Below are positions 11,823 to 34,826 of a stretch of DNA of 43,237 nucleotides, in pieces (within the stretch, counting starts at the first letter, position 1; each line of letters opens with the position of its first letter). A program made the translations under genes and the position numbers. The notes below the pieces were generated by a model. That model had not been told where the DNA came from. It saw only the letters and a list, made by a program, of their open reading frames with translations, and did no database searches. The stretch covers positions 1 through 43,237 of the forward strand of contig JAHWKJ010000001.1 of the NCBI GenBank assembly GCA_019347905.1, read 5' to 3'. This DNA is from Planctomycetota bacterium. GTDB taxonomy: Bacteria > Planctomycetota > Planctomycetia > Planctomycetales > Planctomycetaceae.

Positions 11823-12692
11823 TCAAGGCAGAACGGTCGGCTCGGCTGAGAGCGCGCTGGCATCGTCAATCGCCACGCCGGCCTTCTCGCTGATGAGCAC
11901 CGAGTGCCGCCGGTTGCCGGCGATCTCGCAGCCTTGCACGAGCACCGCCGACGTTCCACCGGCGGCCAGCCCCGCGCGACCGTTCTCCAACAGCCGCACG
12001 TTCTCGAGCACCACATCGCGGCAGAGATCGTGCGCGTTTGCGCCGTCGCGCTGGAAATGCTGAAATGTGAGGTTGCGAATCGTCGCGTGTCGCACGTTGT
12101 ACAGCGACAGTCCGACCCCGCGCGCGGCCAGCGCCAGCGACCGGTCGCGCGGCTCGTCGAAGCCCTCCAGCCGCAGATAGATGGAGCCTTCCCACGCGCA
12201 CCAGTGGCCGGCCGGCAGATCGGTCGCGGGATGAGCCTCGCGCGGACATTCATGCTCGGCCAGCGGCCGTCCCGCATCGAGCAGCAGGTACCACCCCTTC
12301 TTCCAGGGCGTCAGCTTCCACAGGTCTTCGCCGGCCTTCCGCCATAAGTTCGGCGGCAGCGCGGCGGAACCATCGACGACCGCACCGTTACCTTCGATGG
12401 TGAAGTGGGCCAGTGGCGAGCCGCTGTTGACGCGGCCGTCCATCGCCAGCGACTCGTAGTAAGGCCGGCCGTTGTTCTTGATGACAATCGTGTCGCCGGT
12501 TCCGGCGAGCCGCAGAGCGCGTCCGATCGTGCGGACGGGACCCGTCAGCGGATCGACGGGCGTCGCGAATCGCCCATTCGCCGTGTCGCGTCCCAGCACG
12601 TCGTCCACGTACAGGTCCTCCGCCACGCTGGCTCCAGCGGCCGACAGGGCGGCGAAGAAGAAGGCGACGCAGCGGCGGGTAAGTCGTCTCAT
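11823..12692 (-). CDS. Secreted right-handed parallel beta-helix repeat protein
   Basis: Track ORF with signal peptide MRRLTRRCVAFFFAALSAAGASVA. N-terminal DLYVDDVLGRDTANG...IGRALRLAGTGDTIVIKNNGRPYYESL. PbH1-like repeats NVRHATIRNLTFQHF / DVVLENVRLLENG / VLVQGCEIAGN. Confidence 0.7.
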   Translation of the reverse strand: MRRLTRRCVAFFFAALSAAGASVAEDLYVDDVLGRDTANGRFATPVDPLTGPVRTIGRALRLAGTGDTIVIKNNGRPYYESLAMDGRVNSGSPLAHFTIEGNGAVVDGSAALPPNLWRKAGEDLWKLTPWKKGWYLLLDAGRPLAEHECPREAHPATDLPAGHWCAWEGSIYLRLEGFDEPRDRSLALAARGVGLSLYNVRHATIRNLTFQHFQRDGANAHDLCRDVVLENVRLLENGRAGLAAGGTSAVLVQGCEIAGNRRHSVLISEKAGVAIDDASALSAEPTVLP

Positions 12693-12796: not shown

Positions 12797-13474
12797 TCAC
12801 CACCCGCCTTGCGCCGCCGGCACGATCGGTTTCAATTGCTTCATCTCACCCAGCAGCACCGTCCACGGCAGCGGATTGCGCCGCACGAGCACCTGGAAGT
12901 GGCGTTCGCACAATCGTACGAGGCCGGTCGCGCTAAAGTGCTGCACGTGCCCCGGCGTATTGCCCAACCGTGCCAGATAGCGGCCGCGAAGCAGGTTCAG
13001 CATCCGCCACAGCGGTTCGCGGGGCGTGCTGACGAGCAGGTGCCGCTTTGCCACGCGGCACAATTCACCCAGAGCGCGCGGTGGATCGTCGAGATGTTCC
13101 AGGACTTCGCAGCAGACGACCAGATCAAACTCGGCGGCCGCATAGGGCAGTTCATAGACAGAGGCTTCGCGCACGCGGATCAGCGGGTCGAGGTCGCCGA
13201 CCACCTGCCGGATGGAGAGATCACAGGCCTCGAACCGCTCGGGCCGCGGCCCGCATTCGAGGAGCTTCTGCGCGAGATAGCCTTCGCCGCAGCCGACCTC
13301 CAGCACGCTATTGGGCGCCGCCTGCCGGTAAAGATCCGTCACCGCGGCGAGAAACCCTCGCATCAGCCAACGGGCGAGGGGGTTCCACGTCGTGTACTTC
13401 GGGTACACGTTTCCGACGATCGTGGTGTCGTGAGGAATCGAGCCGCTTTCCTCGCGCGCAGATTCAGTTGCCAT
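12797..13474 (-). CDS. Class I SAM-dependent methyltransferase
   Basis: Track ORF 12797-13540. Motif I VLEVGCGEGYLAQKL and post-I/II DLVVCCEVLEHLDDP. The more plausible start is the internal ATG at 13474 (MATESAR...). Confidence 0.85.
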   Translation of the reverse strand: MATESAREESGSIPHDTTIVGNVYPKYTTWNPLARWLMRGFLAAVTDLYRQAAPNSVLEVGCGEGYLAQKLLECGPRPERFEACDLSIRQVVGDLDPLIRVREASVYELPYAAAEFDLVVCCEVLEHLDDPPRALGELCRVAKRHLLVSTPREPLWRMLNLLRGRYLARLGNTPGHVQHFSATGLVRLCERHFQVLVRRNPLPWTVLLGEMKQLKPIVPAAQGGW

Positions 13475-13597
13475 CTGGGTGTTCCGCACGCGTGGCTGGG
13501 GCAGGGAAAGCCAGGACAAGCGTCGAGCGCACGGCGACAATGCGCACGTCGCACGCCTGTGAGTCGTAGATCGCGTGATGCCCCAGTCGGCGATGGG

Positions 13598-14737
13598 TCA
13601 ACCGCACGGACTGGGGCATCGCGGGAGACGAATCGACGATGCAGCCGTCTCGGAAATTGCCGCGGCATGGGATAGCCCCACTGGCTCACCCTGCCCCAGC
13701 CACGGTGCAGCTCCGGTGCGGTAGAGGCCGTCGATGCTCTCGGCCCGATCGTCCGCTTCGTCATGCGGAATCGCAAGTTCCAGCCGCCGCAGCCGCACGA
13801 GCGTCTCTTCGGCCAGCCGGCGGTTGGCCGCGAGCAGGTCGCCCAGCATCGCCATCAGCCCCACCACGAACGACAGGATGACGGCCCCCACGCCCACGAG
13901 CAGCGACTGCACGTGCCCGCTGTAGCCCGGATCGCCGAGGTAGAAGTACAGAAATCGCCCGATCAATACGAGCCCCATCGCCAGGAGCAGCAGCGCCGCG
14001 CCGCCGAACGTCTGCACCGGCCAATACATCAAAAACGACCGCAGGATGACCGGCACGCTCTTGCGCAGGTAATCGAACGTCGAGCCGAACAGCCGCGACG
14101 GGCGCGTGACGGGATTGGTGCGCACCGGCACGTTTTCCACGGCCAGCCCGGCCTGCCCCGCCTGAATCAGCGTCTCCAGCGTATAGCTGAAGCGATTGTG
14201 GACGAACAGCGTCAGCGCCGCCTTGCGGTTCATGGCCCGAAACCCGCTGGTGGCATCGCGGACCACAACGCCCGAAGCCCGCCGCACCACCCAAGTCCCC
14301 AGCCGCTGCAGCCAGCGCTTGGAGAGCGAGAAGTGACCGTTGGTGCCGTTCCGCCGGTCGCCGATCACCAGATCCGCCCGCTCAGCCAGGATCGGCTCGA
14401 CCAGCCGCGCGATGTCTTCACCACGGTACTGATTGTCGGCGTCGGTGTTGACGATGACATCCGCCCCCACCCGCAGGCTGGCGTCGACGCCGGCCTGAAA
14501 CGCCGCCGCCAGCCCCCGCCGCCGCGGAAACCGGAGCACATAATGCACGCCCAACTGCTCGGCAATCTCCGCCGTCCCGTCGGTGCTGCCGTCGTCAATG
14601 ACGAGCAGTTCGATCGCATCGACGCCCGCAGCCCGCCGCGGGAGATCAGCCAGGGTGGCGGGCAACTGCTCCCGCTCGTTGAAGCAGGGAATCTGGATCA
14701 GCAGTTTCAAGCGCGCAATGTCCTTATAAGCGTTCAC
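13598..14737 (-). CDS. GT2 family glycosyltransferase with C-terminal TM helices (polyprenol-phosphate sugar synthase / GtrB-ArnC-DPM1-like)
   Basis: Track ORF. Motifs IQIPCFNEREQL, LLVIDDGSTDGT and NTDADNQY (DxD). C-terminal hydrophobic segments WPVQTFGGAALLLLAMGLVLIG and LLVGVGAVILSFVVGLMAMLG. Confidence 0.9.
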   Translation of the reverse strand: MNAYKDIARLKLLIQIPCFNEREQLPATLADLPRRAAGVDAIELLVIDDGSTDGTAEIAEQLGVHYVLRFPRRRGLAAAFQAGVDASLRVGADVIVNTDADNQYRGEDIARLVEPILAERADLVIGDRRNGTNGHFSLSKRWLQRLGTWVVRRASGVVVRDATSGFRAMNRKAALTLFVHNRFSYTLETLIQAGQAGLAVENVPVRTNPVTRPSRLFGSTFDYLRKSVPVILRSFLMYWPVQTFGGAALLLLAMGLVLIGRFLYFYLGDPGYSGHVQSLLVGVGAVILSFVVGLMAMLGDLLAANRRLAEETLVRLRRLELAIPHDEADDRAESIDGLYRTGAAPWLGQGEPVGLSHAAAISETAASSIRLPRCPSPCG

Positions 14738-14749
14738 ACACCAGCAAAC

Positions 14750-15865
14750 TTACTGTGAAGCTGACGGCGCGGACTTGCGTCGTCGCCTCCTCCAGATGAG
14801 CAGCACGATGACCAGCCCCGCAATGAGCAGATTGAAGCCGAGGATCAGCCAGAACCGAAGCCCGCGTCCATCCTCAGCGGGATTGATCATTCTCGTCCCA
14901 GTCCTTGTCGTGGGCAATGACTCGAGCTGCTCGACCATGCTGTCCAGCTTCGCTTCGATCTCCTGGTTCTCGACGGGGACGTAATGAATCACCTTCTCCC
15001 GCGGCACCGCCGGCCGGTGATCGATCAGCCGCGATCCACCTGGCATTTCCAGCGCATTCATCGTGAACAATGCAGGATCGACCTCCGCGTTCACCTCGAA
15101 TTCGTCGTAACTGAGCTCCTGACGCCAGGAACGATTTCGGTGCTTGAGCGTGAACTCCTCGGTCAGTTTGCTGACGAACCAGATGCCCTTGTCCTGCTTC
15201 CATTCCGCCGTCGTGCTGCTGCCGGGGTTCCCATCATTATACACCTGCACGCTGGCGATGTTGTAACCGTACTCGCGTGCGAATTGCTTGACAATTCTGA
15301 CCCTTGCACTGTTTCGTGCAGCGGATTCAGTGATGTAATCGCCAGCCGCTGTCGTGGTGAGTGTGATGGACCCCGGTGTATATGCTTTGAGAATCGCGGG
15401 AATGTTCGCCAAAGGGCTGTACAGCTTGGTGACGTCCCAAGGAAAGTGAGCAAGTTCAGGCTTCGCGGGTCGACCCGGCGTCGTCGGGGCTGGAAAAGCC
15501 TGCGTTTCTGCACCGGTGACCGAGATCCCGTCGGAAAATCGCGTTGCGAAGATCGCCGTGCCGTCGTAGATGATAATCCTCTTGTTCTCCCCCTTTGGGC
15601 TTTTGGAATACTCAAACTGTAGATGATACTTGCCGTCGTCGAAGTAGACAACGACGCGCGAATCGACATCGATGCCCCAATCGCCATCCCCCTCGCGAAT
15701 GTACTGCCGGTAAGTGCCGCGACCCCTGCCGGAAACAAGCGCGCCGAAAGAGGCCTGCCAGGCTTCCTCAATGATGCTGAATTCCAATCCATGCTCGTGC
15801 TTCTGCGCCTGCGCGTTTGCGCAGAAGGCGATTGCCGCGAGGGCTGTCAAAACGGCGGTGCGCAT
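14750..15865 (-). CDS. Hypothetical exported protein with a LolA-like fold signature and a C-terminal TM anchor
   Basis: Track ORF 14750-15934. Likely start is ATG 15865 (MRTAVLTALAAIAFCANAQA signal peptide), preceded by GGAGTGGGA. VVVYFDDGKYHLQFEYSKSPKGENKRIIIYDGTAIF resembles LolA/LolB-type lipoprotein-carrier repeats; this assignment is weak. C-terminal RFWLILGFNLLIAGLVIVLLIWRRRRRK. Confidence 0.55.
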   Translation of the reverse strand: MRTAVLTALAAIAFCANAQAQKHEHGLEFSIIEEAWQASFGALVSGRGRGTYRQYIREGDGDWGIDVDSRVVVYFDDGKYHLQFEYSKSPKGENKRIIIYDGTAIFATRFSDGISVTGAETQAFPAPTTPGRPAKPELAHFPWDVTKLYSPLANIPAILKAYTPGSITLTTTAAGDYITESAARNSARVRIVKQFAREYGYNIASVQVYNDGNPGSSTTAEWKQDKGIWFVSKLTEEFTLKHRNRSWRQELSYDEFEVNAEVDPALFTMNALEMPGGSRLIDHRPAVPREKVIHYVPVENQEIEAKLDSMVEQLESLPTTRTGTRMINPAEDGRGLRFWLILGFNLLIAGLVIVLLIWRRRRRKSAPSASQ

Positions 15866-16000
15866 TCCCACTCCTTCAGTGCGAACGTCGGTGGCCCGGC
15901 GGGCCCGCGGCGCTGGGCCAATAAACAGCCACAATTAATCGGGCTCTGTATCAGGGGCAGGATGCAATCCCTGGCGCGGCAACGCGGAGTCCGGCGCGGG

Positions 16001-16501
16001 CTACGGAGGGGTCAATTGACAAACGTCGTAAATGCAGTAAATCTCCGTCTGCACAGTCTTGCAGATTTCTCCCGTTGGCACGAGCTTTGAGCATTGAAGC
16101 ACGCCGTCAGCATCGGCTTGGCACAAGCAGTCGAAGTCGTCGCGACAGTACACGGACACCGTCGGCGGGTTCGCCGAACAGGTCTCGTTTCCGATGTCGG
16201 GAGTACATTCTTCGGGGAAATACGGGAGCGACCGACTTGTACACAGGTCGTCCTCTGTCTTGCCATCGCAATAAACGGCGAGGTCGGGGCATGTGCCGTC
16301 TCCGTAGTCGCAGAACCGATGGGGCCAGCACCACTCTCCGTAGCTGCGGCCGCGCAGTACAACCAGGTCGGCGTCCGCCAGCGTGCGCTCGAAACAGGTA
16401 GCGGCCGCGGCGTTCGGCGCCGCCGATGCAGGCTGGATGATTGCGACGCCGGCGGCCAGGACGATGACCAGTGCTGCCAGGACGAGTTGCGATTTCATCA
16501 T
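16001..16501 (-). CDS. Small secreted cysteine-rich acidic protein (15 Cys by my count)
   Basis: Internal start MMKSQLVLAALVIVLAAGVAIIQPASA of track ORF 16001-16666. The ATG overlaps the TGA of the upstream DUF1573 gene (ATGA at 16498-16501). Mature part is rich in C, D, E, T and P. No family recognised. Confidence 0.6.
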   Translation of the reverse strand: MMKSQLVLAALVIVLAAGVAIIQPASAAPNAAAATCFERTLADADLVVLRGRSYGEWCWPHRFCDYGDGTCPDLAVYCDGKTEDDLCTSRSLPYFPEECTPDIGNETCSANPPTVSVYCRDDFDCLCQADADGVLQCSKLVPTGEICKTVQTEIYCIYDVCQLTPP

Positions 16502-17580
16502 ACTTCCTTTTCGCGATCCGGCTTCAGTTCTTCGATCAGAAAGCCGTGAACGGCGACGTCCACGGGAAATGTCTCGTTCGTCTCGCGGTGACGCAAGTGG
16601 AAGCGGATGGCCCCGGCCAGTGTGCCTCCGTCGAACGTATCGCTTGTACGGAAACGGAATGTCCATACGTCGCCGGCGGCGGAATCCGTCGGCACCAAGT
16701 CAAGATAGGGCGGCGTCGCCACGCTCTCCAGCATCACTTGGCGCAGCATGGGGCCTCTCAGTCGCACCGTCACGTCAGAGCGACGGCGCAGCTCCGCACG
16801 TCGCACGACGCCGAAATGGACCGTCCGTGGGAGCGCTTCGACGAACTCGACCGGCCGAATGACGACCGGCAATGTCAGAATTCCTTCACTTGGCAAGGAC
16901 GTGCCGACGGTCAGCTCGACCGATTGCGGTGAAACCGACGTGTTGCGGGCCCTGACGTGCAGCCGAACCGACCCTTGAGGCGGAATCTCTTGCGCAGCCC
17001 CTTCAGCCGTGACTGTGGGAGAAGCGAAGCGAGGCGCCTGGAGAGTGACCGGCTCGTCTGAATGATTCTCGATCACGAACTCGCCGTCAGCTTCTGAACC
17101 GCGGATGACGTCCGGGCGGACCACCAGCGTCTCAGGCCGCCAGCGAAGCATGCGCCTGACGTTCGCGCGCAGTGTGCCCGCCACAACACGCTCCCCGCCG
17201 GGCGTCTCCATGGTGATCGGCCTTTCCAGAATGCCGGGAGTCGCCGACGTGCGGAGCGTGCCGGATAGCGTCGCCGCAGCGCCCGATGCGAGGCGGCTGC
17301 AATCGATTTCGATCCGGCTGCAGCCGCAGCCGGCCGAGACGCTTTCGATTTGCACCTCCCGACCGCTCCGATTGATCACCCGTGCTTGGAAATCGACGGA
17401 GGCGTTGAGACGAATGTCGCCGAGGTCAACGAGGGACGGCTCAAGGACTACGTCGCCCTCTCGCATCTGCAAAGTGGACGGTGCCTTCGGCTGCGGCGAT
17501 CGTCTGGATGCGGGCTGGTCCAGGCAACCCGCCGAAAGAACGGCGTTCAAACCGAGAATCAGAAGATTAAGGTGTCGCAT
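16498..17580 (-). CDS. DUF1573-type lipoprotein (PapD/ASH-like Ig-fold repeats)
   Basis: Track ORF. Lipoprotein signal MRHLNLLILGLNAVLSAGC. VDLGDIRLNASVDFQARVINRSGREVQIESVSAGCGCSRIE matches the DUF1573 signature (beta-sandwich ending in xCGC). Further similar-looking segments follow downstream. Confidence 0.75.
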   Translation of the reverse strand: MRHLNLLILGLNAVLSAGCLDQPASRRSPQPKAPSTLQMREGDVVLEPSLVDLGDIRLNASVDFQARVINRSGREVQIESVSAGCGCSRIEIDCSRLASGAAATLSGTLRTSATPGILERPITMETPGGERVVAGTLRANVRRMLRWRPETLVVRPDVIRGSEADGEFVIENHSDEPVTLQAPRFASPTVTAEGAAQEIPPQGSVRLHVRARNTSVSPQSVELTVGTSLPSEGILTLPVVIRPVEFVEALPRTVHFGVVRRAELRRRSDVTVRLRGPMLRQVMLESVATPPYLDLVPTDSAAGDVWTFRFRTSDTFDGGTLAGAIRFHLRHRETNETFPVDVAVHGFLIEELKPDREKEV

Positions 17581-17688
17581 GAGAACGCGCCGTTAGGCGG
17601 CACCTCCCAAGACGAGGCGGGGGGAACACTAATGGCACCAAATTCACGCTGATTTCAACCGCGTACCTCCGCCGCCTGCCTTCGAGAT

Positions 17689-17715
17689 ATTAGTGGAGAT
17701 TAGTGGGAATTAGCG
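17689..17715. promoter_or_regulatory. Three tandem 10-bp direct repeats ATTAGYGGRR, AT-rich, overlapping the C39 stop codon and upstream of the DUF1573 gene
   Basis: attagtggag / attagtggga / attagcg read directly. The one-helical-turn phasing is the geometry used by winged-helix (OmpR/PhoB-like) regulators. Function is inferred only. Confidence 0.3.
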
Positions 17716-18276
17716 TTCCGTGACTGCCCCTGAGCGCACCGTCAACAATAAGGCATTTCCCTTCCAGCGATAGCGCGAGGATCTCAGCAGCCGCTCGTCA
17801 GCGTCGTCCATGCCGACGGCCGGATCGAGCACGCGAACCAGCTTTCCGGCCGCTCCGACAACTGGGACGAAATGCTCTGTCTCCGAGTGCAGGATCGCGT
17901 ATTGCCCAAGCTGTCCGACGTGCCGACGGAGTGCGTCAAACCCGAGCTCGACACCGTTGGCATTGAAGGAAAGCCTTTCGGCCGCGTGCTTCAAATCGAG
18001 CATGGTTGTGCCGTCTTCGGTCGTGTTCGTGAGCTCACGGAGCTTGTCGATGCCGTGCGGCTTGCCGGCGAGTTTGCAGAGGAGGTAGAGGCACTTGGCG
18101 CCGCAGTCCTGCCGCCGCCCAGCAAGTGTGATCCGCTCGACGTCCGGCGTCAGCGGTTGAGACGCGGCAGGGACGATCGCGTGCTGGGTGGTCCACAGAT
18201 CGCGGCCAAACCAATTGACGGCCGCCGCCATGACCAACAGCACCGCCAGAGTGAAATTGACCGTACGCGGTTCCAT
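17710..18276 (-). CDS. Stand-alone peptidase C39-like cysteine protease domain protein with an N-terminal TM/signal anchor
   Basis: Track ORF. N-terminus VNFTLAVLLVMAAAVNWF. QDCGAKCLYLLCKLAGKP matches the C39 Q-x-x-CG-x-x-C/A-L catalytic Cys block. Candidate His in EHFVPVV and Asp in VLDPAVG. Confidence 0.75.
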   Translation of the reverse strand: MEPRTVNFTLAVLLVMAAAVNWFGRDLWTTQHAIVPAASQPLTPDVERITLAGRRQDCGAKCLYLLCKLAGKPHGIDKLRELTNTTEDGTTMLDLKHAAERLSFNANGVELGFDALRRHVGQLGQYAILHSETEHFVPVVGAAGKLVRVLDPAVGMDDADERLLRSSRYRWKGNALLLTVRSGAVTER

Positions 18277-18318
18277 AGCCTGTGCCGCAACAGCGTTGAG
18301 AAGTCCCGACCACGATCT

Positions 18319-18374
18319 AAATGCATTTCAGCGATTCCAAATAGGTGCTGCCAGGGAAGATCGGGGAAGATCGG
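18319..18374. promoter_or_regulatory. AT-rich perfect palindrome AAATGCATTT plus tandem GGAAGATCGG x2, upstream of the C39 gene
   Basis: aaatgcattt at 18319-18328. ggaagatcgg ggaagatcgg at 18355-18374. Located in the 125-nt gap between the 18402-19040 gene and the C39 start at 18276. Confidence 0.3.
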
Positions 18375-18401
18375 ATTTCTTCACGTCGACAATCGGGGAT
18401 C

Positions 18402-19040
18402 TCATGGCCGTTGATGCCAAACGACGCCGCAGCTAGTGCCGTCGCCGAGAAAGTGCAGCAGCGGCTGAGTGAGTCGGCGATTGAGGTGCTTAATCGCGTC
18501 GTGCAATCGAGTCCGCGGATCGACGCCTTCGCGTGGCGGCAGCGGATCATCGATCCGGCGCGGCCAGCCCTCTTCCTCGAACGCGTCGAGGATCAGTGTC
18601 TGGTTCGGTGCCGGTCGCAAGAATTGCTTCACCACCGCCGATCCCAGCCGGAGCTCGCGCCGCTCCGAATCCCACTCCGGCACGACGCGAGTCGGTGTTT
18701 CGGGCTCAAGCAGTTGCGGGATCAATTCGGCCCCCATGGCCGTCAGCACAGCGGCGAGGCGGCGCGAGCGGCGGGCGTTGTCACAGTGCCGAAATCGCCG
18801 CTCGGGATCGCCGTGTCGGGTGTATTCCGTCGCGAGTTCGATCAGCCCGTCGTTCTCGAGCCGATTGAGAACCGCCTGGGTCAATCCGACGGCTTCGAGC
18901 GTTGACTGCAGGACGGCGAACTGCCAGGGATCTTTCCCCGCAGTACAGGCGTGACTCCAGGTTTGCGAAAGCAGGCGCAGTGCCCTTCGGCAGCAATCAT
19001 CAAGCAGCGCGATGACAGTTCCCGTTGGTGTCGTTGTCAT
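18402..19040 (-). CDS. Hypothetical protein, possibly DNA-binding, with a 4-nt overlap onto the upstream GT-C gene
   Basis: Track ORF of 212 aa. The start overlaps the GT-C stop (19037-19040). No confident family. Segments LNRLENDGLIEL and LILDAFEEEGWPRRIDDPLPP look like helix-turn-helix/winged-helix pieces, which is speculative. Confidence 0.55.
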   Translation of the reverse strand: MTTTPTGTVIALLDDCCRRALRLLSQTWSHACTAGKDPWQFAVLQSTLEAVGLTQAVLNRLENDGLIELATEYTRHGDPERRFRHCDNARRSRRLAAVLTAMGAELIPQLLEPETPTRVVPEWDSERRELRLGSAVVKQFLRPAPNQTLILDAFEEEGWPRRIDDPLPPREGVDPRTRLHDAIKHLNRRLTQPLLHFLGDGTSCGVVWHQRP

Positions 19041-21238
19041 GGCTGAATCTCCGATTGACGATCATTGCCGACGGTCCGGGAGCCATTGCCTTCGGCCTTG
19101 GTCAAGAGCTCCGGCAGTTCGAATTCACGCCGTACCCGATTGGCCTCGTCGAGCGTGATGTGGTAGATGAAGATCGAATAGCCGGCTCGGGCGACCGGCT
19201 CGAACTCCAGGAAGTAGCCGTAATCGGAGCGAGAGACGCCGACGCGTCGGCCCTGCCCGTCGGGGATGGGCCAGCCGTGTCCATGGATGGTATTGATACT
19301 GGCCGCATGCCACCCGGGATGGGGGCCGGCTGGCGGTTGGGGAGCGAGTAGCGAGGGGCGGGAATCGTGGGTCCCGCTCGATCCGTCGTCCGGTCGGGGC
19401 ATCCGCGGCGGGAGTGCGTGTTCGATTCCGGCCCACTTGGGATCGACGGGACCGTAATAGGCCAGATGAAGAGGTCTGGCTTCAGGATGCTCGTCGAGCC
19501 AATCCTTCAGGAACAGGAGGTCCTGCCCCCAGTCGATGTTCGTGTGGATGAGGTGCTCGTGCCCCCGCGCCGGTCCGCCGACGAGCTCGTTGAAGTACGA
19601 CAGGCTGTGCGGGTAGAACCATAGGCTGCTGGCGATCGACCACGCCAAGGCGCCGACGGCGAGTGCATGAAACGCTCGACGCCAGGCGCGGGGCGGCTGG
19701 CGTGCCGGGCCGGCACGTCCCGGCTCTTTTGTCTGGCTCTCAACCCTCGACTCTCGACCCTCGACCCGCTGGAAAACGCGGCTGATCCAGATGAAGGCGA
19801 ACGGCAGGCAGGGCAACACGTAGCGCAGATTCTTATTGAATCCCGTCTGTGAGCTGACGAGCGCGAGGACCGCGACCGCTGGCGCGAGAAGCACCAGTTC
19901 GTCGCGCCGGGATGATCGCGAACGGCCTCCACCGGGCTGGGCGTTCGGCGTTCGGCGTTCGATGCTCGATGTTCGATGTTCGCCGTCCTCCGTGCCTTCC
20001 GCCTCATCCTCCATCTTCAATCCTCTATCCTCACCCGCGGACCTCGCACCGCCCCGGATACGCCCCGACAGCCTCCACCCCAATGCCAGCGCGAATAAGA
20101 GCCAAGTCCCCAGTGGGATCTTGATTGCCAATCCGTACAGATAGTAATACCACCAGCCGCCGAGCTTCCACTCGCCGCGCAGGTAGGATGGCAGCTTACG
20201 CTCGAAGTACTTCCGCTGCGTGTCGATGCCCCGGACGTAGTTTTCCGGGAAAGGGAGGGGTACCCCACTCAGCCAGGTTCCGCGAAAGCGGTTGCCGCTG
20301 TGCCGGCCTTCGCCGATTGTGCCGGCAAGAGATGGGCTGACGAACTCGTATTCCCCGAGCCGTTTGAACGATCCTTCGAAGCCGTAGCCGAGATTGAGGA
20401 CATACAGGGCAACGCCCAGCGTCGCCGCAAGCTGAGCGGCCTCGCCACGCACTCCCCCGCGCGCACCGCGGTCGGCTGTCCAGCGCCAGAGCAGCCATAC
20501 GAGCGGCCACAGGCCGAACAGAACCAGGAAGGTGGCCTTGGTCAACTGCACGAGGCCCAGGGCCAGTCCGGCAAGTGCGGCCGCGCGCCAGCCGGCGAAT
20601 CGCAGCCAGCGCCACAACGCATATGCGGCCAAGACGCACAGCGCCGCCCCGGCCGCATCGGTCGTCATCAGCGAACCGTGCGCAAGGATGTTCGGCGAGA
20701 AGCACCACAAAGCCAAGGCCATGAGTCCCGGCGCGGGTCCATACAGTTCTCGTGCCCATCGGAAGCAGAGGTACCCGCCCACCAGACTGAACGGGATGCA
20801 GGCCCAGCGTGCCAGCGTGATCAGCCAGAAGATCCGCGGCGCGTTGGCCTCAATGAAGTGCTGACTGACTGCAGCCTCCGCGCGGGAGCCTGGCGAGTCG
20901 CGGTAGGCTCGCCAGTCGGTTTCCGGCTGAGCGAGCAGGACCGGCACTGCGGCTGTCAAGCGCACGATCGGCGCGGTGACACGATATAGCTCAAAGCGTC
21001 CCAATTGCCAGTGGCTGATGCCGGCGACGAGTTGAGCCGGTTCGTCGGTATTCGGCGAATGCACAGCGGCGCTCCAGGCAAGGAGGGCGGCGTGGATCAG
21101 CAAGAGTGCGGCGAGGGCGAATGGGAGGAGCAAAGTAGACGAGTCGCTCCGCGACCCGAGGTCCGGTCGCGGAGCGACCGCGCTACTTTGCTGCGCCGGC
21201 GAGGCGTCGTCAGAAGTCCCTGATGACTTGTCCGTCAC
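19037..21238 (-). CDS. GT-C fold glycosyltransferase (GT39/PMT_2/ArnT-like) with repeat-derived in-frame inserts
   Basis: Track ORF 19037-21643. The N-terminal 135 codons overlap the DUF1559 gene and are Arg/Ser/Pro junk. Plausible starts are GTG 21238 or TTG 21133. First loop carries HSPNTDEPAQLVAGISHW (a GT-C DE-type motif after TM1). Many TM helices. Conserved tail YFNELVGGPARGHEHLIHTNIDWGQDL. Confidence 0.8.
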   Translation of the reverse strand: MTDKSSGTSDDASPAQQSSAVAPRPDLGSRSDSSTLLLPFALAALLLIHAALLAWSAAVHSPNTDEPAQLVAGISHWQLGRFELYRVTAPIVRLTAAVPVLLAQPETDWRAYRDSPGSRAEAAVSQHFIEANAPRIFWLITLARWACIPFSLVGGYLCFRWARELYGPAPGLMALALWCFSPNILAHGSLMTTDAAGAALCVLAAYALWRWLRFAGWRAAALAGLALGLVQLTKATFLVLFGLWPLVWLLWRWTADRGARGGVRGEAAQLAATLGVALYVLNLGYGFEGSFKRLGEYEFVSPSLAGTIGEGRHSGNRFRGTWLSGVPLPFPENYVRGIDTQRKYFERKLPSYLRGEWKLGGWWYYYLYGLAIKIPLGTWLLFALALGWRLSGRIRGGARSAGEDRGLKMEDEAEGTEDGEHRTSSIERRTPNAQPGGGRSRSSRRDELVLLAPAVAVLALVSSQTGFNKNLRYVLPCLPFAFIWISRVFQRVEGRESRVESQTKEPGRAGPARQPPRAWRRAFHALAVGALAWSIASSLWFYPHSLSYFNELVGGPARGHEHLIHTNIDWGQDLLFLKDWLDEHPEARPLHLAYYGPVDPKWAGIEHALPPRMPRPDDGSSGTHDSRPSLLAPQPPAGPHPGWHAASINTIHGHGWPIPDGQGRRVGVSRSDYGYFLEFEPVARAGYSIFIYHITLDEANRVRREFELPELLTKAEGNGSRTVGNDRQSEIQP
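19735..19767. repeat. CTCGACY heptamer tandem repeat (family D, copy 1) inside the GT-C gene
   Basis: ggctctcaaccctcgactctcgaccctcgaccc. Translated on the minus strand as VEGRESRVESQ. A related copy lies at 28815-28845. Confidence 0.75.
19941..20034. repeat. Composite simple-sequence insert inside the GT-C gene: six heptamers (GCGTTCG x3, ATGCTCG, ATGTTCG x2) plus a solo degenerate CTCCATCC-type half arm
   Basis: Heptamers at 19941-19982. cctcatcctccatcttcaatcctctatcctcac at 20002-20034, with no opposing GGATGGAG arm found nearby. Minus-strand translation is GEDRGLKMEDEAEGTEDGEHRTSSIERRTPNAQP. Confidence 0.75.
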
Positions 21239-22232
21239 GCCGGTCTCCCAGCTTCTGGTAGACGTGGTAGCTGATGTTTTCGCTGATGAAACGCACCGCT
21301 CCGTCGCACAACAGGAAATGCGCGCCGCCTGCGTGGGCCGACTTGAAGCCTTGGGCGGCATCGAGCGCCTCCCACGAAAAGCAGCCGGCAGCGGCGGGCG
21401 GCTCCCGAGTGCACGAGGGGTAGTTGATGGGAATCGTCGTCGCGAAAAACATGGTCGCGGGTTCGTACCACCCGCCATTGTGGATCCGCTGGTTGCAGCC
21501 CGCGCGGACTTCACCGAAGGCGATTGTCTGCGATGCGCCGTCCCGGATCTGGTCGAAGCGGGCCGCCCACGAATGCCGGGCGAAGACGCCCGAGATTCTC
21601 CTCGGATCGGTGCTGCCGCCGAACGACGCCGGACCATTGCCAAATGGGTTGCCGAATGGCACCCACTGGTCGCAGTCGCCGTTGCGCGACCTCATCGCCT
21701 GGGCCCCGATGGACGGCGCGTAATTCGTCATCGCCCGGTCGGCGGGGACGCCACCGGCGTTCTGATCGCTCGGACAGAGGAAGACCGGGAACGCGGTGCG
21801 GCGCAGAGCCTCGTCGGCGATGATCTGCCCGACGACATCGCCGCCGAAATCAAGCCGGTCGTAGAACGGCTTTTGGTCGAGCAGCGGCAACAGGCCCACG
21901 AGCGGCGTGCCCTTGCGGTGATGGCCCGTCTGCCACGGCCGCTGGCCCGGCACGAGGCCGTTGCCGCTGTTGACCGGGAACTGCCTCGAGCGGTCGTGAT
22001 AAGCGTAGAGCGCCACCGCAATCTGCTTGAGATGGTTGCGGCACTGGGTGCGGCGAGCCGCTTCGCGGGCCTGCTGGACGGCCGGCAGGATCAGCGCCGT
22101 CAGCACCGCGATCACGGAGACGACAGCCAGAAGCTCGATCACGGTGAAGCCGCGACGCCAACCGCACCGCAGCCGGCGCAGTCCTCTCCCGCACTGCGAC
22201 ACGCTAACGCGGTCGAACGCAGAGATGGACAT
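21210..22232 (-). CDS. DUF1559 family protein with a prepilin-type N-terminal cleavage/methylation signal (H-X9-DG protein)
   Basis: Internal ATG 22232 of track ORF 21210-22379. RRGFTVIELLAVVSVIAVLTALILPAVQQAREAARRTQCRNHLKQI is the class III signal plus DUF1559 start. C-terminal HAGGAHFLLCDGAVRFISENI is the H-X9-DG motif. Confidence 0.9.
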   Translation of the reverse strand: MSISAFDRVSVSQCGRGLRRLRCGWRRGFTVIELLAVVSVIAVLTALILPAVQQAREAARRTQCRNHLKQIAVALYAYHDRSRQFPVNSGNGLVPGQRPWQTGHHRKGTPLVGLLPLLDQKPFYDRLDFGGDVVGQIIADEALRRTAFPVFLCPSDQNAGGVPADRAMTNYAPSIGAQAMRSRNGDCDQWVPFGNPFGNGPASFGGSTDPRRISGVFARHSWAARFDQIRDGASQTIAFGEVRAGCNQRIHNGGWYEPATMFFATTIPINYPSCTREPPAAAGCFSWEALDAAQGFKSAHAGGAHFLLCDGAVRFISENISYHVYQKLGDRRDGQVIRDF

Positions 22233-22699
22233 CGATCGGTCCTCGATTCCTGCGAGCAGAACGCTTTCCGAAGAAACGGAATTCCGCAGCGCGAGGTGAC
22301 GGAAGAGAAGAGGGGAAGAGTGGACCGATCTCTTGCGTCGCCGACCATCCTGCCAGAGCCGTGTGCAAGTGTCAAGCAAGAACCGTCAAGTTCTTGCAGG
22401 AGCCGCTCCAGGACTGAAGAAATGCGGCGGTCCCGCAGGGCTGCGATCGCTCGGGATTGCTCTTCCCGCAATCGCGCCTGCGAAACCGCCGCATAGTAGA
22501 CAATCGAAATCGGAGGCCAAAAGCGGACACGGCCTCGAAAAATTTTTCTGAAAAAAGTTTGCCCGGGCGATTCGTCCCCCCGGCGAGTGTGCGACGGCGA
22601 TGATCCCGTGGCGGACACGGACTGTTTGAACGACTCCGGCGCGGCCGCATACAATTCGGTTGAGTAACAGCCGCCGTTCCGCTCGTCACAACCCCCTCG

Positions 22700-32185: not shown

Positions 32186-34021
32186 TCATCGCTCGATCTT
32201 CACCAGCCCCGCCTCCCGCGCCGCCGGCTCCGGGTCCTCAAACGGCAGCGACTTGAGGAACTCGACGAGGTCGTCCAGCTCGGCGTCGCTCAGGTGGCTC
32301 GTCTTCCCGTGGCGGTCTCCCGCGTTGCACGTTGTCAGCACGTCGCGCAAGGTAACGGCGCGGCCGTGATGCAGATACGGGGCGGTGCGATAGACGCCCA
32401 ACAGCGTTGGCGTGTCGTACTTCGGCCCCATCTTCTCGGACGGATCATCGCCGCCGGTCCCCACGTCGTGCAGCACGAACTCGCCGCCGGCGTCCGGCCG
32501 CGAATCGGTATACAACGGCCCCGCGTGGCAGGTCGCGCAGCGGGTTTCTTTCGAGAAGAAGAGTTCGCGGCCGCGGTGGGCGGCGGCGCTCAGGCCCCCT
32601 TTCGCGTGCGGGCTGAGCGGGAACGCGTGCGAGTTGGCATACGCGGCCACGGCATCCAGCTCCGCCGACAGCTCGCGGTTCGGCTCTGCCAGCGAGTCAT
32701 TCAGCTTCCCGCGGATGAGTCCGCGGCCCTGCATCAGCGGCCCCCGGATCGTGTGCTCGAAGTCCTGCACTTCATCGCGGTCGGCCGACCAGTGGATCGG
32801 GTGTGTCCACGCCATGCCCGCCAGCGACTGCGTGTTCCTCAGGCCTTCGGGATTGTGCCACGTGCGGCCGTCGGCGTCGCCGTCGGGGTGGCAGCTCGAG
32901 CACGAGATCCAGCGGCGGCTGACCATCGGCTGCAGCGCCGAGTAAAACAGCCGCTTGCCCGCCAGCACGTCCTCGTCGAGCGGGCAGTCGCACACCGAAA
33001 CGCTCGCCACCGGCCGCAACTGCTTCGCGTCGTAGGCGACGACGTTGAAGTCGAGCGCGTTATAGACATAGAAGGTGTTGCCGTCGGGCGCGACGCGGAC
33101 GGCCCGCGGGTTATTGCCCAGTTGCAGGTACCCCGCCTCGGCGACCTCGCGGTAGTCGTCGTCAACGATGTCGCAGGCGAACATGTCGTTCGTGCCGGCG
33201 AACACGATGTACAGCCGCCGCCCGTCCGGCGAGACGGCCACCTCCCACGGATTGGCCGTCACCAGGTTCCCGCGAAAGGCGTCCATGGGAATCCGCGTGC
33301 GGCGGCGGTCTTCGCCCGGCCGCGTGTCGACGATCGCAAGGTACGGAAAGATCGAGCCGGCCCCGTGGACGGCGGTGATTTTCGAGCGGATGTGCGACAG
33401 GTAAACCTTCGGCCGCCGCGGATGCACGACGAGCTGCCGCGCGAGGTTATCGGTCGCAGGGCCGGTCCATTCGTCGACCGTCTGCCCGTCCTTCAGGTCG
33501 ATCACCCGCACAACCGCCGTGAAGTACTCGCAGTAGTACAGCCGCGACTCATCGGGCGCGAGCGCAATGCCGCGGGGGAATCGCCCGGCATCGAACGTGC
33601 GGACGACGTGGCCTTCGACGGGATCGATCTCCACGATCTGTCCCGGATACTCCAGCGTGACATAGATCCGCCCGCCATCGGCGGTACTGACAACGGCATA
33701 GGGTTCATCGAAGACGTCGATCGACCGCTCGCGCGTCCCGGCATCCGCATTGAGAATGTGCACCACATCATCGCCATACACCGCCACCGCCAGCCGGTGC
33801 GTGTCCCCCAGAAACGACAGCCCCTCCGGCTTCTTCCCGACCTGGATTTCCCGCAGCTTGGTATGCGTGGCGAGATCGACGACCGTCACGCTGCCACTAT
33901 CGCGGTTCGCGCAGGCCAGCAGCTTTCCGTCCGCGGAGATATCCATCAGGCTGTTCGCCTGCCCACCCAACGCGTTTCCCGTGACCGCCGCTCCCAGCAG
34001 CGCAGCCAGGACGAACTGCAT
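32186..34021 (-). CDS. Secreted beta-propeller (YVTN/YncE-like) plus di-haem cytochrome c peroxidase-family protein
   Basis: Track ORF 32186-34147. Likely start ATG 34021 (MQFVLAALLGAAVTGNALG). Repeated propeller-like blocks. Two haem motifs, CSSCH and CATCH, with the GLRNTQSL and TPTLLGVYRTAPYLHHG contexts typical of CCP/MauG-like proteins. Confidence 0.8.
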   Translation of the reverse strand: MQFVLAALLGAAVTGNALGGQANSLMDISADGKLLACANRDSGSVTVVDLATHTKLREIQVGKKPEGLSFLGDTHRLAVAVYGDDVVHILNADAGTRERSIDVFDEPYAVVSTADGGRIYVTLEYPGQIVEIDPVEGHVVRTFDAGRFPRGIALAPDESRLYYCEYFTAVVRVIDLKDGQTVDEWTGPATDNLARQLVVHPRRPKVYLSHIRSKITAVHGAGSIFPYLAIVDTRPGEDRRRTRIPMDAFRGNLVTANPWEVAVSPDGRRLYIVFAGTNDMFACDIVDDDYREVAEAGYLQLGNNPRAVRVAPDGNTFYVYNALDFNVVAYDAKQLRPVASVSVCDCPLDEDVLAGKRLFYSALQPMVSRRWISCSSCHPDGDADGRTWHNPEGLRNTQSLAGMAWTHPIHWSADRDEVQDFEHTIRGPLMQGRGLIRGKLNDSLAEPNRELSAELDAVAAYANSHAFPLSPHAKGGLSAAAHRGRELFFSKETRCATCHAGPLYTDSRPDAGGEFVLHDVGTGGDDPSEKMGPKYDTPTLLGVYRTAPYLHHGRAVTLRDVLTTCNAGDRHGKTSHLSDAELDDLVEFLKSLPFEDPEPAAREAGLVKIER

Positions 34022-34245
34022 CCGCCAGGCGCAACCGCGACGCGGACTGCAGCGGCCCGCCTTGCTTGTCGGATTCGCGAACCATCCATCGCTCAAAATC
34101 ATGCGTGTCTCTCCACCGTCGAGGGACAGACTCCTCTCCCGCCGCACGCCGGGAGCATGCCCACAGCTTGGCAGATTGCGACCGCCAGTGCCATCTTGCG
34201 CGGTGACGCGAGCGGCTCGCCGTGGGACGTCGCCCTGCCACGGCG

Positions 34246-34730: not shown

Positions 34731-34826
34731 GCATTCGTCGAAAATGTGGGAGACGATATACGCGAGGATGCACAGGCGATTCGCGCCTGTCAATGGATTC
34801 ACGGGTCCCGCTTCTTCGCCACGGCA

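What the first reader, a model, noticed from the sequence alone, without database searches (positions are those of the whole stretch)
14750..18276. Lower-GC cassette: C39-like peptidase, DUF1573 lipoprotein, 15-Cys secreted protein, LolA-like anchored protein
Four co-directional genes with no recognisable pathway annotation sit between the GT-C and GT2 glycosyltransferase genes. The first is a TM-anchored stand-alone C39 domain with the catalytic Cys block QDCGAKCL and candidate His and Asp. The second is a multi-repeat DUF1573 lipoprotein. The third is a 166-aa secreted acidic protein with 15 Cys whose ATG overlaps the DUF1573 stop. The fourth is an exported LolA-like protein with a C-terminal anchor. 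My hand counts of single 60-nt lines give about 52-58% GC at 15241, 15541, 16081 and 17941. That compares with about 65% in carB (2041) and about 80% in the permease (37381), suggesting a compositionally distinct insert. C39 domains normally mature double-glycine leader peptides. Here the only small secreted candidate has an ordinary Sec signal, so the peptidase substrate is unknown. The cassette may be a maturation, folding or export system for a disulfide-rich exoprotein.
Basis: partly seen in the sequence, partly recalled or inferred. Interest (0 to 1): 0.7.

Follow-up and report, generated by a model that had tools for sequence, protein, structure and literature searches.

The report
Periplasmic double-glycine protein maturation cassette

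Summary
Four co-directional minus-strand genes encode a TM-anchored stand-alone C39 peptidase, a DUF1573 lipoprotein, a 166-aa protein with 15 Cys, and a signal-peptide protein with a C-terminal anchor. Their GC is lower than the rest of the window (61.1% vs 66.7%).

New findings:
- The order C39 > DUF1573 > Cys-rich > anchored protein recurs in all 13 independent lineages recovered, with different flanks each time.
- The Cys-rich family is tiny: 24 other representatives among 1.84 billion proteins.
- Every full-length member has a Sec-like N-terminus followed by L-[ST]-D-x-E-L-x-x-L-x-G-[G/S/A]. This matches the double-glycine leader rule. It sits 3-8 residues before the first invariant Cys.
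- The window's own copy is degenerate (LADADLVVLRGR).
- Flanking charges put the C39 domain in the periplasm in 9 of 9 homologues. Cys58, His135 and Asp151 are invariant.
- Three related lineages carry a MauE-thioredoxin fusion (a DsbB-like oxidase) overlapping the C39 start codon.
- DUF1573 carries a CXC motif that is UGC in selenoprotein forms.

Not supported: "LolA-like" (no profile or fold evidence) and "multi-repeat DUF1573" (one significant domain only).

Verdict: a new variant of double-glycine processing that is Sec-dependent, periplasmic and lacks an ABC transporter. The periplasmic C39 peptidase FapD is the nearest precedent. The function of the mature protein is unknown.

The parts
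17710..18276 (-). Stand-alone C39 cysteine peptidase (188 aa). One N-terminal TM helix (aa 6-24, nt 18205-18261), a ~30-aa linker, then the C39 domain. Predicted N-in / C-out, so the domain faces the periplasm.
   Evidence: PF03412 68.2 bits. Aligned with PCAT1, ComA and LahT structures. Flank charges give N-in in 9/9 homologues.
18103..18105 (-). Catalytic Cys58 codon, within QDCGAKCL (nt 18088-18111).
   Evidence: Aligns with the PCAT1 active-site Cys. Invariant in 9 homologues. Coordinates verified.
17872..17874 (-). Catalytic His135 codon (EHF motif).
   Evidence: Aligns with the PCAT1 'AHFVV' His. Invariant.
17824..17826 (-). Catalytic Asp151 codon (VLDP motif).
   Evidence: Aligns with PCAT1 'VADP'. 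Invariant.
16498..17580 (-). DUF1573 lipoprotein (360 aa). Lipobox LSAGC (Cys19, nt 17524-17526), one bona fide DUF1573 Ig-like domain (aa 49-140), then two divergent beta-rich domains.
   Evidence: PF07610 38.9 bits. Second domain only E=0.11 for DUF1573 and E=0.019 for Cep192_D6. Lipobox verified.
17320..17328 (-). CGC (CXC) motif of the DUF1573 domain (aa 85-87), a candidate redox-active site.
   Evidence: CXC is kept in 8 of 9 homologues. Selenoprotein DUF1573 forms have UGC at this motif (PMC9312934, PMC13188914). NCBIfam OS_HP2 (seleno)protein hit over aa 62-112.
16001..16501 (-). Cys-rich precursor (166 aa, 15 Cys, pI 4.2). Its start codon overlaps the DUF1573 stop (ATGA).
   Evidence: The family has only 24 other representatives in 1.84e9 proteins, with 12 invariant Cys.
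16418..16501 (-). Sec-type signal or anchor segment of the precursor (aa 1-28, MMKSQLVLAALVIVLAAGVAIIQPASAA).
   Evidence: Every full-length family member has a basic n-region and a hydrophobic window with KD > 2.
16346..16381 (-). Double-glycine-type leader motif, degenerate in this copy: L(-12)ADAD(-8)L(-7)VVL(-4)RG(-2)R(-1). Predicted C39 cleavage gives the mature N-terminus SYGEWCW.
   Evidence: Homologous columns in 28 members: L 25/28, E/D 21/28, L 20/28, L 19/27, G 27/27; position -1 is G 15, S 7, A 1, R 2. Leader rule taken from PMC6363468.
16004..16345 (-). Predicted mature Cys-rich domain (114 aa, 14 Cys, pI 4.05). Conserved WCW, PExC..GN..C and CxC motifs.
   Evidence: No Pfam, NCBIfam or PDB relative.
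14750..15865 (-). 'P4' (371 aa): signal peptide, ~270-aa beta-rich domain, conserved helix IHYVPVENQEIEAKLDSMVEQLESLPTT (nt 14906-14989), C-terminal TM (nt 14792-14854) and an RRRRRK tail. It always follows the Cys-rich gene and is duplicated in some relatives.
   Evidence: No family hit. AF2 pLDDT 39.
18402..19040 (-). 212-aa ORF between GT-C and C39. Soluble, no family hit, absent from all related loci. Shares the low GC3 of the block. Membership in the system is uncertain.
19037..21130 (-). GT-C (PMT_2-type) membrane glycosyltransferase. Probable first gene of the operon and a possible accessory of the cassette.
   Evidence: PF13231. An orthologue (40-52% id) lies directly downstream of P4 in L007. 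GC3 of 0.73 matches the cassette.
21142..21179 (-). Strong terminator-like hairpin (15-bp stem) after the upstream DUF1559 gene. It marks the likely 5' limit of the transcription unit.
   Evidence: I1.
13598..14737 (-). GT2 polyprenyl-phosphate-sugar-synthase-like gene, 12 nt downstream of P4. It has host-typical GC3 (0.83) and is not conserved beside the cassette elsewhere, so it is probably context rather than core.

Best explanation
The cassette is a Sec-dependent, periplasmic maturation system for a disulfide-rich protein.

Proposed sequence of events:
1. The 166-aa precursor is inserted or exported through Sec by its N-terminal hydrophobic segment (inferred).
2. This exposes a double-glycine-type leader helix (family consensus R-x-L-[ST]-D-x-E-L-x-x-L-x-G-G) on the periplasmic face (inferred).
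3. The stand-alone C39 peptidase is tethered to the same membrane by one N-in TM helix, with its Cys58/His135/Asp151 domain outside (inferred from charges).
4. The peptidase binds the leader through the Leu-12, Leu-7 and Leu-4 positions and cuts after the G-[G/S/A] pair, G-R in this window (inferred).
5. This releases a ~114-aa acidic domain with 14 Cys, beginning SYGEWCW (inferred).
6. Oxidative folding (12 invariant Cys, so at least 6 disulfides) is supplied in many relatives by a MauE-thioredoxin fusion encoded at the head of the operon (inferred). In this window it must come from elsewhere in the genome.
7. The DUF1573 lipoprotein, with its CXC motif, is proposed as a redox or chaperone partner (inferred, lower confidence).
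8. P4, the C-terminally anchored beta-rich protein, is proposed as the membrane-bound partner of the mature protein: receptor, carrier or immunity (speculative).

Shown here: the gene content, the synteny, the motif, the invariance of the catalytic residues and the charge asymmetry. Cleavage, topology, disulfides and the roles of DUF1573 and P4 are inferred.
For: Synteny.
- C39 > DUF1573 > Cys-rich > P4 is kept in all 13 independent lineages wherever the contig reaches (the count includes contigs cut after one to three of these genes). The lineages are the window, L001, L002/3/6, L004, L005, L007, L008, L011, L012, L013-17, L018, L019 and L020/21.
- Flanks are unrelated and there is no counter-example.

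Leader motif.
- Exhaustive phmmer found only 24 other representatives.
- In the 28-sequence alignment the columns before the first invariant W-C read L(-12) 25/28, S/T(-11) 16/28, E/D(-8) 21/28, L(-7) 20/28, L(-4) 19/27 and G(-2) 27/27. Position -1 is G 15, S 7, A 1.
- This is the published recognition rule Leu-12..Glu-8-Leu-7 with hydrophobic -4 and GG/GA/GS (PMC6363468).
- Members with a full a-priori 7/7 match beat 99.9% of their own shuffles.
- A canonical-GG member (P0028) sits in the same cassette.
- No other 7/7 motif exists in any frame of the window.

Peptidase.
- Pfam 68 bits.
- Cys, His and Asp align with PCAT1 and ComA and are invariant.

Topology.
- The N-flank is more positive than the C-flank in 9/9 C39 proteins.
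- All precursors have a basic n-region plus an h-region.
- DUF1573 has a lipobox and P4 has a signal peptide.

Redox link.
- The MauE-Trx fusions carry CRC or CGC plus CPHC or CPEC motifs (sequences read; MauE family hit).
- In L003/L002 and L004 the fusion gene overlaps the C39 start by 4 nt; in L012 it lies 25 nt upstream.
- MauE replaces DsbB, with a periplasmic CXC active site (bioRxiv 10.64898/2026.03.05.709764).
- DUF1573 selenoproteins carry UGC.

Precedent. FapD is an active periplasmic stand-alone C39 (PMC5557850).
Against: - The window's own leader scores only 5/7 and has Arg at -1. Known C39 S1 pockets take Gly, Ala or Ser.
- The canonical oxyanion Gln six residues before the catalytic Cys is absent in the whole subfamily. 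Its role is questioned for LahT150, however.
- Topology rests on charge bias only.
- A normal signal-peptidase site (ASA|A) also exists, so the C39 cut is not strictly needed for release.
- The window has no MauE.
- One relative (L004) has lost the DUF1573 CXC, and another (L011) lacks that domain.
- No structural model could be obtained for the Cys-rich protein or P4.
- There are no experimental data at all.
Confidence: 0.6

Rival explanations
1. The leader-like segment is simply the first helix of the mature protein, and signal peptidase I does all the processing. The C39 protein then acts on something else: P4, DUF1573 or an unlinked protein.
For: - Several members have a good AxA signal-peptidase site upstream of the motif.
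- The window copy has G-R, a poor C39 site.
- FapD's substrate is also not the obvious one.
Against: - The motif matches the C39 recognition rule at six positions across 27-28 sequences, and G(-2) is invariant.
- It is the only such motif in the cassette or the window.
- The C39 gene and the Cys-rich gene never separate.
Confidence: 0.15
2. The C39 peptidase sheds P4. It cuts at the conserved ALExPGG[SA]RLIDHR segment (window nt 15011-15055), ~50 residues before the C-terminal anchor, and releases the beta-rich ectodomain.
For: P-G-G-[SA]-R is conserved in the window and its closer relatives. Release of an anchored ectodomain would make biological sense.
Against: - The GG is not kept in distant cassettes: CAGSR, CGSSR, PGRAR, CEGGR, PSGSR.
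- The upstream residues do not fit Leu-12/Glu-8/Leu-7.
- Only G-x-R-I-x-D-x-R is conserved there.
Confidence: 0.08
3. The C39 domain is cytoplasmic or non-catalytic. It would be a C39-like chaperone domain, as in HlyB-type transporters, or a C39-fold enzyme with another chemistry. It would hold or modify the precursor rather than cleave it in the periplasm.
For: - The canonical oxyanion Gln is missing.
- A C39-fold glycosidase has been reported (PMC13642728, abstract).
- Topology has not been measured.
Against: - Cys, His and Asp are invariant. C39-like chaperone domains lack the Cys.
- Charge bias is N-in in 9/9.
- Every partner is extracytoplasmic.
- Cytoplasmic cleavage would remove the export signal.
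- No ABC transporter is nearby.
Confidence: 0.07
4. The cassette is one half of a periplasmic glycoprotein pathway. GT2 would make a polyprenyl-phosphate sugar and GT-C would glycosylate the Cys-rich protein or the Ser/Thr/Pro-rich stalk of P4, in the manner of a glycocin. This adds to the best explanation rather than excluding it.
For: - A GT-C orthologue is adjacent in two divergent loci, in different positions (window upstream, L007 downstream).
- GT-C shares the cassette's low GC3.
- GT2 best matches PpgS, AglJ and dolichyl-phosphate hexose transferases.
- Glycocin clusters combine a GG leader, C39, disulfide enzymes and a glycosyltransferase (abstracts).
Against: - GT-C is absent beside the cassette in L001, L002, L004 and L013.
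- The 414-430-aa membrane protein downstream in L002 and L004 is unrelated to GT-C.
- GT2 is not conserved nearby and has host-like GC3.
- PMT_2 genes are numerous in planctomycetes (own knowledge).
Confidence: 0.2

Closest known systems
Double-glycine leader processing by C39 domains of peptidase-containing ABC transporters (PCAT1, ComA, LahT; class II bacteriocins, lanthipeptides)
   Same: - Same peptidase family, with an aligned Cys/His/Asp.
- The substrate family carries the same leader grammar: Leu-12, Glu-8, Leu-7, hydrophobic -4 and G-[G/A/S].
- The precursor gene is in the same operon.
   Different: - The peptidase is a 188-aa stand-alone protein with one TM helix. It has no ABC transporter domains and none is nearby.
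- The domain is predicted to be periplasmic, not cytoplasmic.
- The leader follows a Sec-type hydrophobic segment instead of starting the protein.
- The cargo is ~114 aa with 12-16 Cys.
- The canonical oxyanion Gln is absent.
FapD, the periplasmic stand-alone C39 peptidase of the Pseudomonas Fap amyloid system (PMC5557850)
   Same: A Sec-dependent, periplasm-active, stand-alone C39 whose catalytic Cys is required. It is encoded in an operon with its secreted clients.
   Different: - FapD is soluble with a cleavable signal. This protein keeps a TM anchor.
- The Fap partners (amyloid subunits, the FapF barrel) are absent here.
- FapD's substrate lacks a canonical leader and was unresolved in that paper. 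Here the candidate substrate has a canonical leader.
- Sequence relatedness to FapD could not be tested.
Sublancin/glycocin-type clusters (GG-leader precursor, C39 transporter, dedicated thiol-disulfide oxidoreductases, glycosyltransferase, immunity protein)
   Same: The parts list is similar: GG-leader Cys-containing precursor, C39, dedicated disulfide-forming proteins (MauE-Trx in relatives), a membrane-anchored downstream protein, and glycosyltransferases nearby.
   Different: - Gram-positive cytoplasmic logic with an ABC exporter.
- Precursors are small (<60 aa, 2-3 disulfides).
- The glycosyltransferase there is a soluble SunS-type GT2. Here it is a polyprenyl-phosphate-sugar synthase-like GT2 plus a GT-C, and neither is consistently linked.
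MauE/MauD oxidative maturation of the disulfide-rich methylamine dehydrogenase small subunit; MauE as a DsbB substitute (bioRxiv 10.64898/2026.03.05.709764)
   Same: A MauE membrane oxidase with a CXC site, coupled to a thioredoxin-fold CXXC partner and dedicated to a Cys-rich periplasmic client. Relatives of this cassette encode exactly such a fusion.
   Different: - There are no other mau genes.
- The client is a different family.
- The MauE-Trx gene is missing from this window and from L001, L007 and L013.

Membership tests
Peptidase C39 (PF03412) | Profile match above the curated threshold | tested here: met
   68.2 bits against a cut-off of 22, profile positions 5-129 of 133.
Peptidase C39 (PF03412) | Catalytic Cys, His and Asp at the aligned positions | tested here: met
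   Cys58, His135 and Asp151 align with the PCAT1 and ComA residues. They are invariant in 9 homologues.
Peptidase C39 (PF03412) | Oxyanion-hole Gln about 6 residues before the catalytic Cys | tested here: not met
   Position Cys-6 is Ala or Pro in this subfamily. A Gln at Cys-2 is not conserved either. The importance of this Gln is questioned for LahT150.
Peptidase-containing ABC transporter (PCAT/AMS) | C39 domain fused to ABC transmembrane and ATPase domains | tested here: not met
   The protein is 188 aa. NCBIfam PCAT models score 33-36 bits against cut-offs of 524-853. No ABC gene lies in the cassette in any locus.
Double-glycine (GG) leader precursors | Leu-12, Glu-8, Leu-7, hydrophobic -4 and G-[G/A/S] at -2/-1, immediately before the mature part | tested here: met
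   Met at family level. In the window copy it is only partly met: 5 of 7 positions, with G-R at -2/-1.
Double-glycine (GG) leader precursors | Leader at the extreme N-terminus with no Sec signal; export by the cognate ABC transporter | tested here: not met
   Every full-length member has a basic n-region and a hydrophobic h-region 16-34 residues upstream of the motif.
Double-glycine (GG) leader precursors | Actual cleavage after the GG pair by the C39 peptidase | not testable with these tools
   Needs N-terminal mass spectrometry or an in vitro assay.
DUF1573 (PF07610) | Profile match above threshold, with the CXC motif | tested here: met
   38.9 bits against 26.1. CGC at aa 85-87. CXC is kept in 8 of 9 homologues.
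LolA/LolB-like lipoprotein carrier fold (for P4) | Profile or structural similarity to LolA-like families | tested here: not met
   - No Pfam or NCBIfam hit, even at E<=10, for 6 members.
- No PDB profile hit.
- The AF2 model has pLDDT 39 and Foldseek gives nothing below E=0.78.
- Only a helix followed by beta-hairpins and an 'IIIYDGxAxF' pattern recall LolA (own knowledge).
MauE-thioredoxin oxidative folding module | MauE membrane domain with CXC, plus a thioredoxin-fold CXXC, encoded with the client | tested here: not met
   Absent from the window (tblastn). Present in L002/3, L004 and L012. The gene overlaps the C39 start in L002/3 and L004, and lies 25 nt upstream in L012.
Glycocin-type cluster | SunS-like GT2 acting on the precursor, conserved in the cluster | tested here: not met
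   GT2 best matches polyprenyl-phosphate sugar synthases. It is not found beside the cassette in other loci.
Anti-phage defence systems (PADLOC) | Any component matching a defence model | tested here: not met
   No hit for the five proteins.

The most novel reading that the evidence does not exclude
Planctomycetes possess a self-contained route, with no ABC transporter, in which a classical double-glycine leader has been moved behind a Sec signal. A membrane-tethered periplasmic C39 peptidase removes it. The product is a new class of large (~115 aa), multiply disulfide-bonded and possibly glycosylated secreted effector (bacteriocin-like or signalling). Its folding is served by a MauE-Trx oxidase and a CXC-bearing DUF1573 lipoprotein. 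Its tail-anchored partner P4 acts as immunity or receptor protein. The cassette moves horizontally, since it has lower GC than its flanks in every genome examined.
Probability: 0.3. Interest if true: 0.8.

Novelty: new variant of a known kind. Interest (0 to 1): 0.62.

Why it matters
Double-glycine leaders and C39 peptidases are textbook partners of cytoplasmic ABC exporters.
- A system that places the same recognition code behind a Sec signal and cuts it in the periplasm would show that the leader/peptidase pair is portable between export routes.
- It would also give the poorly understood class of periplasmic C39 peptidases a member with an obvious, testable substrate. FapD, the only studied example found here, had no defined substrate in the 2017 study.
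- It assigns a concrete context to three orphan families: DUF1573 with its CXC (or UGC) motif, the Cys-rich family and P4.
- It links the newly recognised MauE disulfide pathway to a dedicated client.
- It points to an unexplored class of disulfide-rich secreted proteins in Planctomycetes.

Tried and rejected
Structure and family searches that gave nothing:
- AF2 of P4 (two-sequence alignment) gave pLDDT 39, and Foldseek against the PDB gave nothing meaningful.
- AF2 of the Cys-rich protein alone gave pLDDT 37.
- Pfam, NCBIfam and PDB profile searches of P4 and the Cys-rich family found nothing.
- PADLOC found nothing and Rfam found nothing in the window.

Searches of sequence collections:
- The first metagenome scan, with the P4 alignment, found nothing. 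The second, with the C39 alignment, found only 3 loci.
- The genome scan found only 2 of 185,579 species genomes, so Bacteroidota co-occurrence could not be examined further.

Ideas tested and dropped:
- MauE in the window: absent.
- The 414-430-aa membrane protein downstream in L002 and L004 as a GT-C relative: hhalign probability 0.1%.
- Mobile-element hallmarks around the low-GC block: no tRNA and no flanking repeats.
- P4's PGG as a double-glycine site: not conserved.
- A P4 paralogue in the second low-GC region (35407-36546): unrelated, with only a weak Secretin_N hit.
- orf212 as a known regulator: no hit.

Literature: no description of this cassette was found.

Full report
**1. Observation**

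The region holds four co-directional minus-strand genes.
- C39 peptidase: 17710-18276, 188 aa.
- DUF1573 protein: 16498-17580, 360 aa.
- Cys-rich protein: 16001-16501, 166 aa.
- A fourth protein, 'P4': 14750-15865, 371 aa. Its ATG follows a GGAG.

*C39.* It scores 68.2 bits on PF03412. QDCGAKCL contains Cys58, which aligns with the active-site Cys of PCAT1. His135 (EHF) and Asp151 (LDP) align with the PCAT1 and ComA His and Asp. All three are invariant in nine homologues. A single TM helix occupies residues 6-24.

*DUF1573.* It passes Pfam (38.9 against 26.1) for one domain only, aa 49-140. The next domain is only faintly similar (E=0.11). It has the lipobox LSAGC and a CGC motif.

*Cys-rich protein.* It has 15 Cys and pI 4.2. 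Its ATG overlaps the DUF1573 stop as ATGA, behind AAGGAAG.

*P4.* It has a signal peptide, a C-terminal TM helix and an RRRRRK tail.

*Composition.*
- The cassette averages 61.1% against 66.7% elsewhere (p=2e-8).
- At gene level, GC3 is 0.71-0.76 against a mean of 0.795 (sd 0.056).
It ends at GT2, which has GC3 0.83.
- A 15-bp-stem hairpin at 21142-21179 follows the upstream DUF1559 gene. It probably marks the start of the transcription unit.

**2. The four genes are one conserved unit**

Word-indexed homologue searches found very few relatives. P4 had one, the Cys-rich protein had none, and C39 had six. Their contigs, two species genomes (both Planctomycetia MAGs, out of 185,579 species genomes) and a few metagenome contigs all show the order C39 > DUF1573 > Cys-rich > P4.

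After removing duplicates there are 13 independent lineages. The count includes contigs cut after one to three of these genes. None breaks the order wherever the contig extends (table).

- Flanking genes differ from locus to locus.
- P4 is tandemly duplicated in L013, and probably in L005.
- The cassette is lower in GC than its flanks in every longer locus checked: L002/L006 0.618 vs 0.652-0.655, L007 0.554 vs 0.655, L013 0.515 vs 0.561.
- So the composition break is a property of the cassette wherever it sits. That fits horizontal movement, although no mobile-element marks were found.

**3. The substrate**

An exhaustive phmmer search of the Cys-rich protein against 1.84 billion representatives returned only 24 others, nearly all 154-166 aa. 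A MAFFT alignment of 28 members shows three things.

*a. A Sec-like N-terminus.* Every full-length member has a basic n-region and a hydrophobic segment.

*b. A conserved leader block 16-34 residues further on.*
| Position | Residues |
|---|---|
| -14 | R 15/28 |
| -12 | L 25/28 |
| -11 | S or T 16/28 |
| -10 | D 22/28 |
| -8 | E or D 21/28 |
| -7 | L 20/28 |
| -4 | L 19/27 |
| -2 | G 27/27 |
| -1 | G 15, S 7, A 1, R 2, T 1, N 1 |

*c. The mature part.* The first invariant W-C follows 3-8 residues later, then 12 invariant Cys and a PExC..GN..C signature.

The block is the published C39 recognition code. That code is a double-Gly end (GG, GA or GS), Leu-12-x3-Glu-8-Leu-7, and residues -4, -7 and -12 packed into the protease groove (PMC6363468).

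- Members with a perfect a-priori 7/7 match beat more than 99.9% of their own shuffles.
- The window copy, LADADLVVLRGR|SYGEWCW, scores only 5/7 (p about 0.28 on its own).
- A canonical-GG member (P0028...LKDQELSGIVGG|QT...) lies in a typical cassette (L013).
- No other full match exists in any frame of the 43-kb window.
- P4's PGG[SA]R was considered as an alternative site. Its GG is lost in distant cassettes.

**4. Where it happens**

In all nine C39 proteins examined, the short N-terminal flank is more positive than the flank after the TM helix. The net charge difference is +1 to +7. This predicts N-in, with the protease domain outside.

- The precursor, the DUF1573 lipoprotein and P4 are all exported.
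- No ABC transporter is present in any locus.
- Cutting the leader in the cytoplasm would also remove the export signal.
- A periplasmic, stand-alone, catalytically required C39 has a precedent in FapD of the Pseudomonas Fap system. Its substrate was unresolved in that study (PMC5557850).

**5. Folding helpers**

*MauE-thioredoxin fusion.*
- In L002/3 and L004 the gene before C39 overlaps its start codon by 4 nt. In L012 it lies 25 nt upstream.
- The gene encodes a MauE membrane domain with a CRC or CGC motif, fused to a domain with CPHC or CPEC (sequences; MauE family hit).
- MauE has recently been shown to replace DsbB, with a periplasm-facing CXC active site. About 8% of MauE proteins are thioredoxin fusions (bioRxiv 10.64898/2026.03.05.709764).
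- The window itself has no MauE.

*DUF1573.*
- It keeps a CXC in 8 of 9 homologues.
- Selenoprotein DUF1573 forms carry UGC there (PMC9312934, PMC13188914).
- The window protein also hits the OS_HP2 (seleno)protein model.
- A redox or isomerase-like role is therefore plausible but unproven. L004 has lost the motif and L011 lacks the domain.

**6. What remains unknown**

- P4 and the mature Cys-rich domain have no detectable relatives in Pfam, NCBIfam or the PDB.
- AF2 models were unusable, with pLDDT 39 and 37, and Foldseek gave nothing.
- 'LolA-like' thus rests only on a helix-plus-beta-hairpin pattern.
- P4's constant position after the precursor, its duplication and its membrane anchor suggest a partner role: immunity, receptor or carrier. 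This is speculation.
- GT-C may be an accessory. An orthologue (40-52% id) is adjacent in L007, on the other side of the cassette, and it shares the low GC3. It is absent in four other loci.
- GT2 looks like ordinary context.

**7. Comparison and verdict**

The system works like double-glycine leader processing but fails the membership tests for a PCAT system. It has no transporter fusion, a predicted periplasmic location and a leader behind a Sec signal. It resembles FapD in location, glycocin/sublancin clusters in parts list, and the MauE/MauD pathway in its oxidase.

No paper describing the cassette was found.

I rate it a new variant of a known kind. It is real, rare and coherent. It has a specific, cheaply testable prediction: Cys58-dependent cleavage after Gly51-Arg52, giving the N-terminus SYGEWCW.

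Confidence in the core mechanism is about 0.6. Confidence in the roles of DUF1573 and P4 is lower.

Noticed in passing
window 18402-19040 (-): A 212-aa soluble ORF sits between GT-C and C39, and its start overlaps the GT-C stop. It has no Pfam, NCBIfam, PDB or PADLOC hit and no counterpart in any related locus. Its GC3 (0.71) is the same as the cassette's.
   Followed up: partly
window 21210-22379 (-); L002 8105-9034; L004 2-274; L013 5235-6185: A DUF1559 (SBP_bac_10 / N-methyl pilin-like) gene lies next to the cassette in 4 of the 6 lineages with enough flank. The family is very abundant in planctomycetes, so this may be chance, but it recurs on either side of the cassette.
   Followed up: partly
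window 21124-21197: A 36-nt-arm inverted repeat (81% complementary, 2-nt gap) that includes a 15-bp GC-rich stem with a T-rich tail, directly after the DUF1559 gene. It is the strongest terminator-like element in the 9-kb region scanned (13400-22600).
   Followed up: partly
window 34000-36600, gene 35407-36546 (+): A second low-GC dip (0.58-0.62). It contains a 379-aa ORF with GC3 0.70 and only a weak Secretin_N hit. It is unrelated to P4 despite similar size and composition.
   Followed up: partly
L013 2913-3959 and 3995-5227; L005 3473-3706: P4 is tandemly duplicated in some cassettes. A further 395-aa protein with a C-terminal anchor follows in L013 (6571-7758). This is reminiscent of multi-copy immunity genes.
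   Followed up: partly
L002 13473-14717; L004 4818-6110: A conserved 414-430-aa polytopic membrane protein lies directly downstream of P4 in two lineages. It has no family hit and is not related to the window's GT-C (hhalign probability 0.1%).
   Followed up: partly
L004 1918-2967; L011 987-1601: Exceptions to the DUF1573 CXC motif. L004 reads PNRRCAK, with the first Cys lost. The L011 gene appears to lack the whole N-terminal DUF1573 domain.
   Followed up: no
L007 11046-12933: The GT-C orthologue is split over two reading frames around 12420-12493. This is probably a frameshift error in the long-read MAG assembly.
   Followed up: no
L013 3-782: A LuxR-type response-regulator-like protein is encoded immediately upstream of C39 in the cassette that carries the canonical GG precursor. 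It is a possible regulator of the system.
   Followed up: no
window 13598-14737 (-) and 19037-21130 (-): A polyprenyl-phosphate-sugar-synthase-like GT2 (best matches PpgS, AglJ and dolichyl-phosphate hexose transferase) and a PMT_2-type GT-C bracket the cassette. Together they are the two halves of a lipid-linked periplasmic glycosylation route.
   Followed up: partly
window 16394-16396 (-), Cys36 of the precursor: The window's precursor has an extra Cys (ATCFER) inside the predicted propeptide, between the signal segment and the leader motif. It is not conserved in the family.
   Followed up: no
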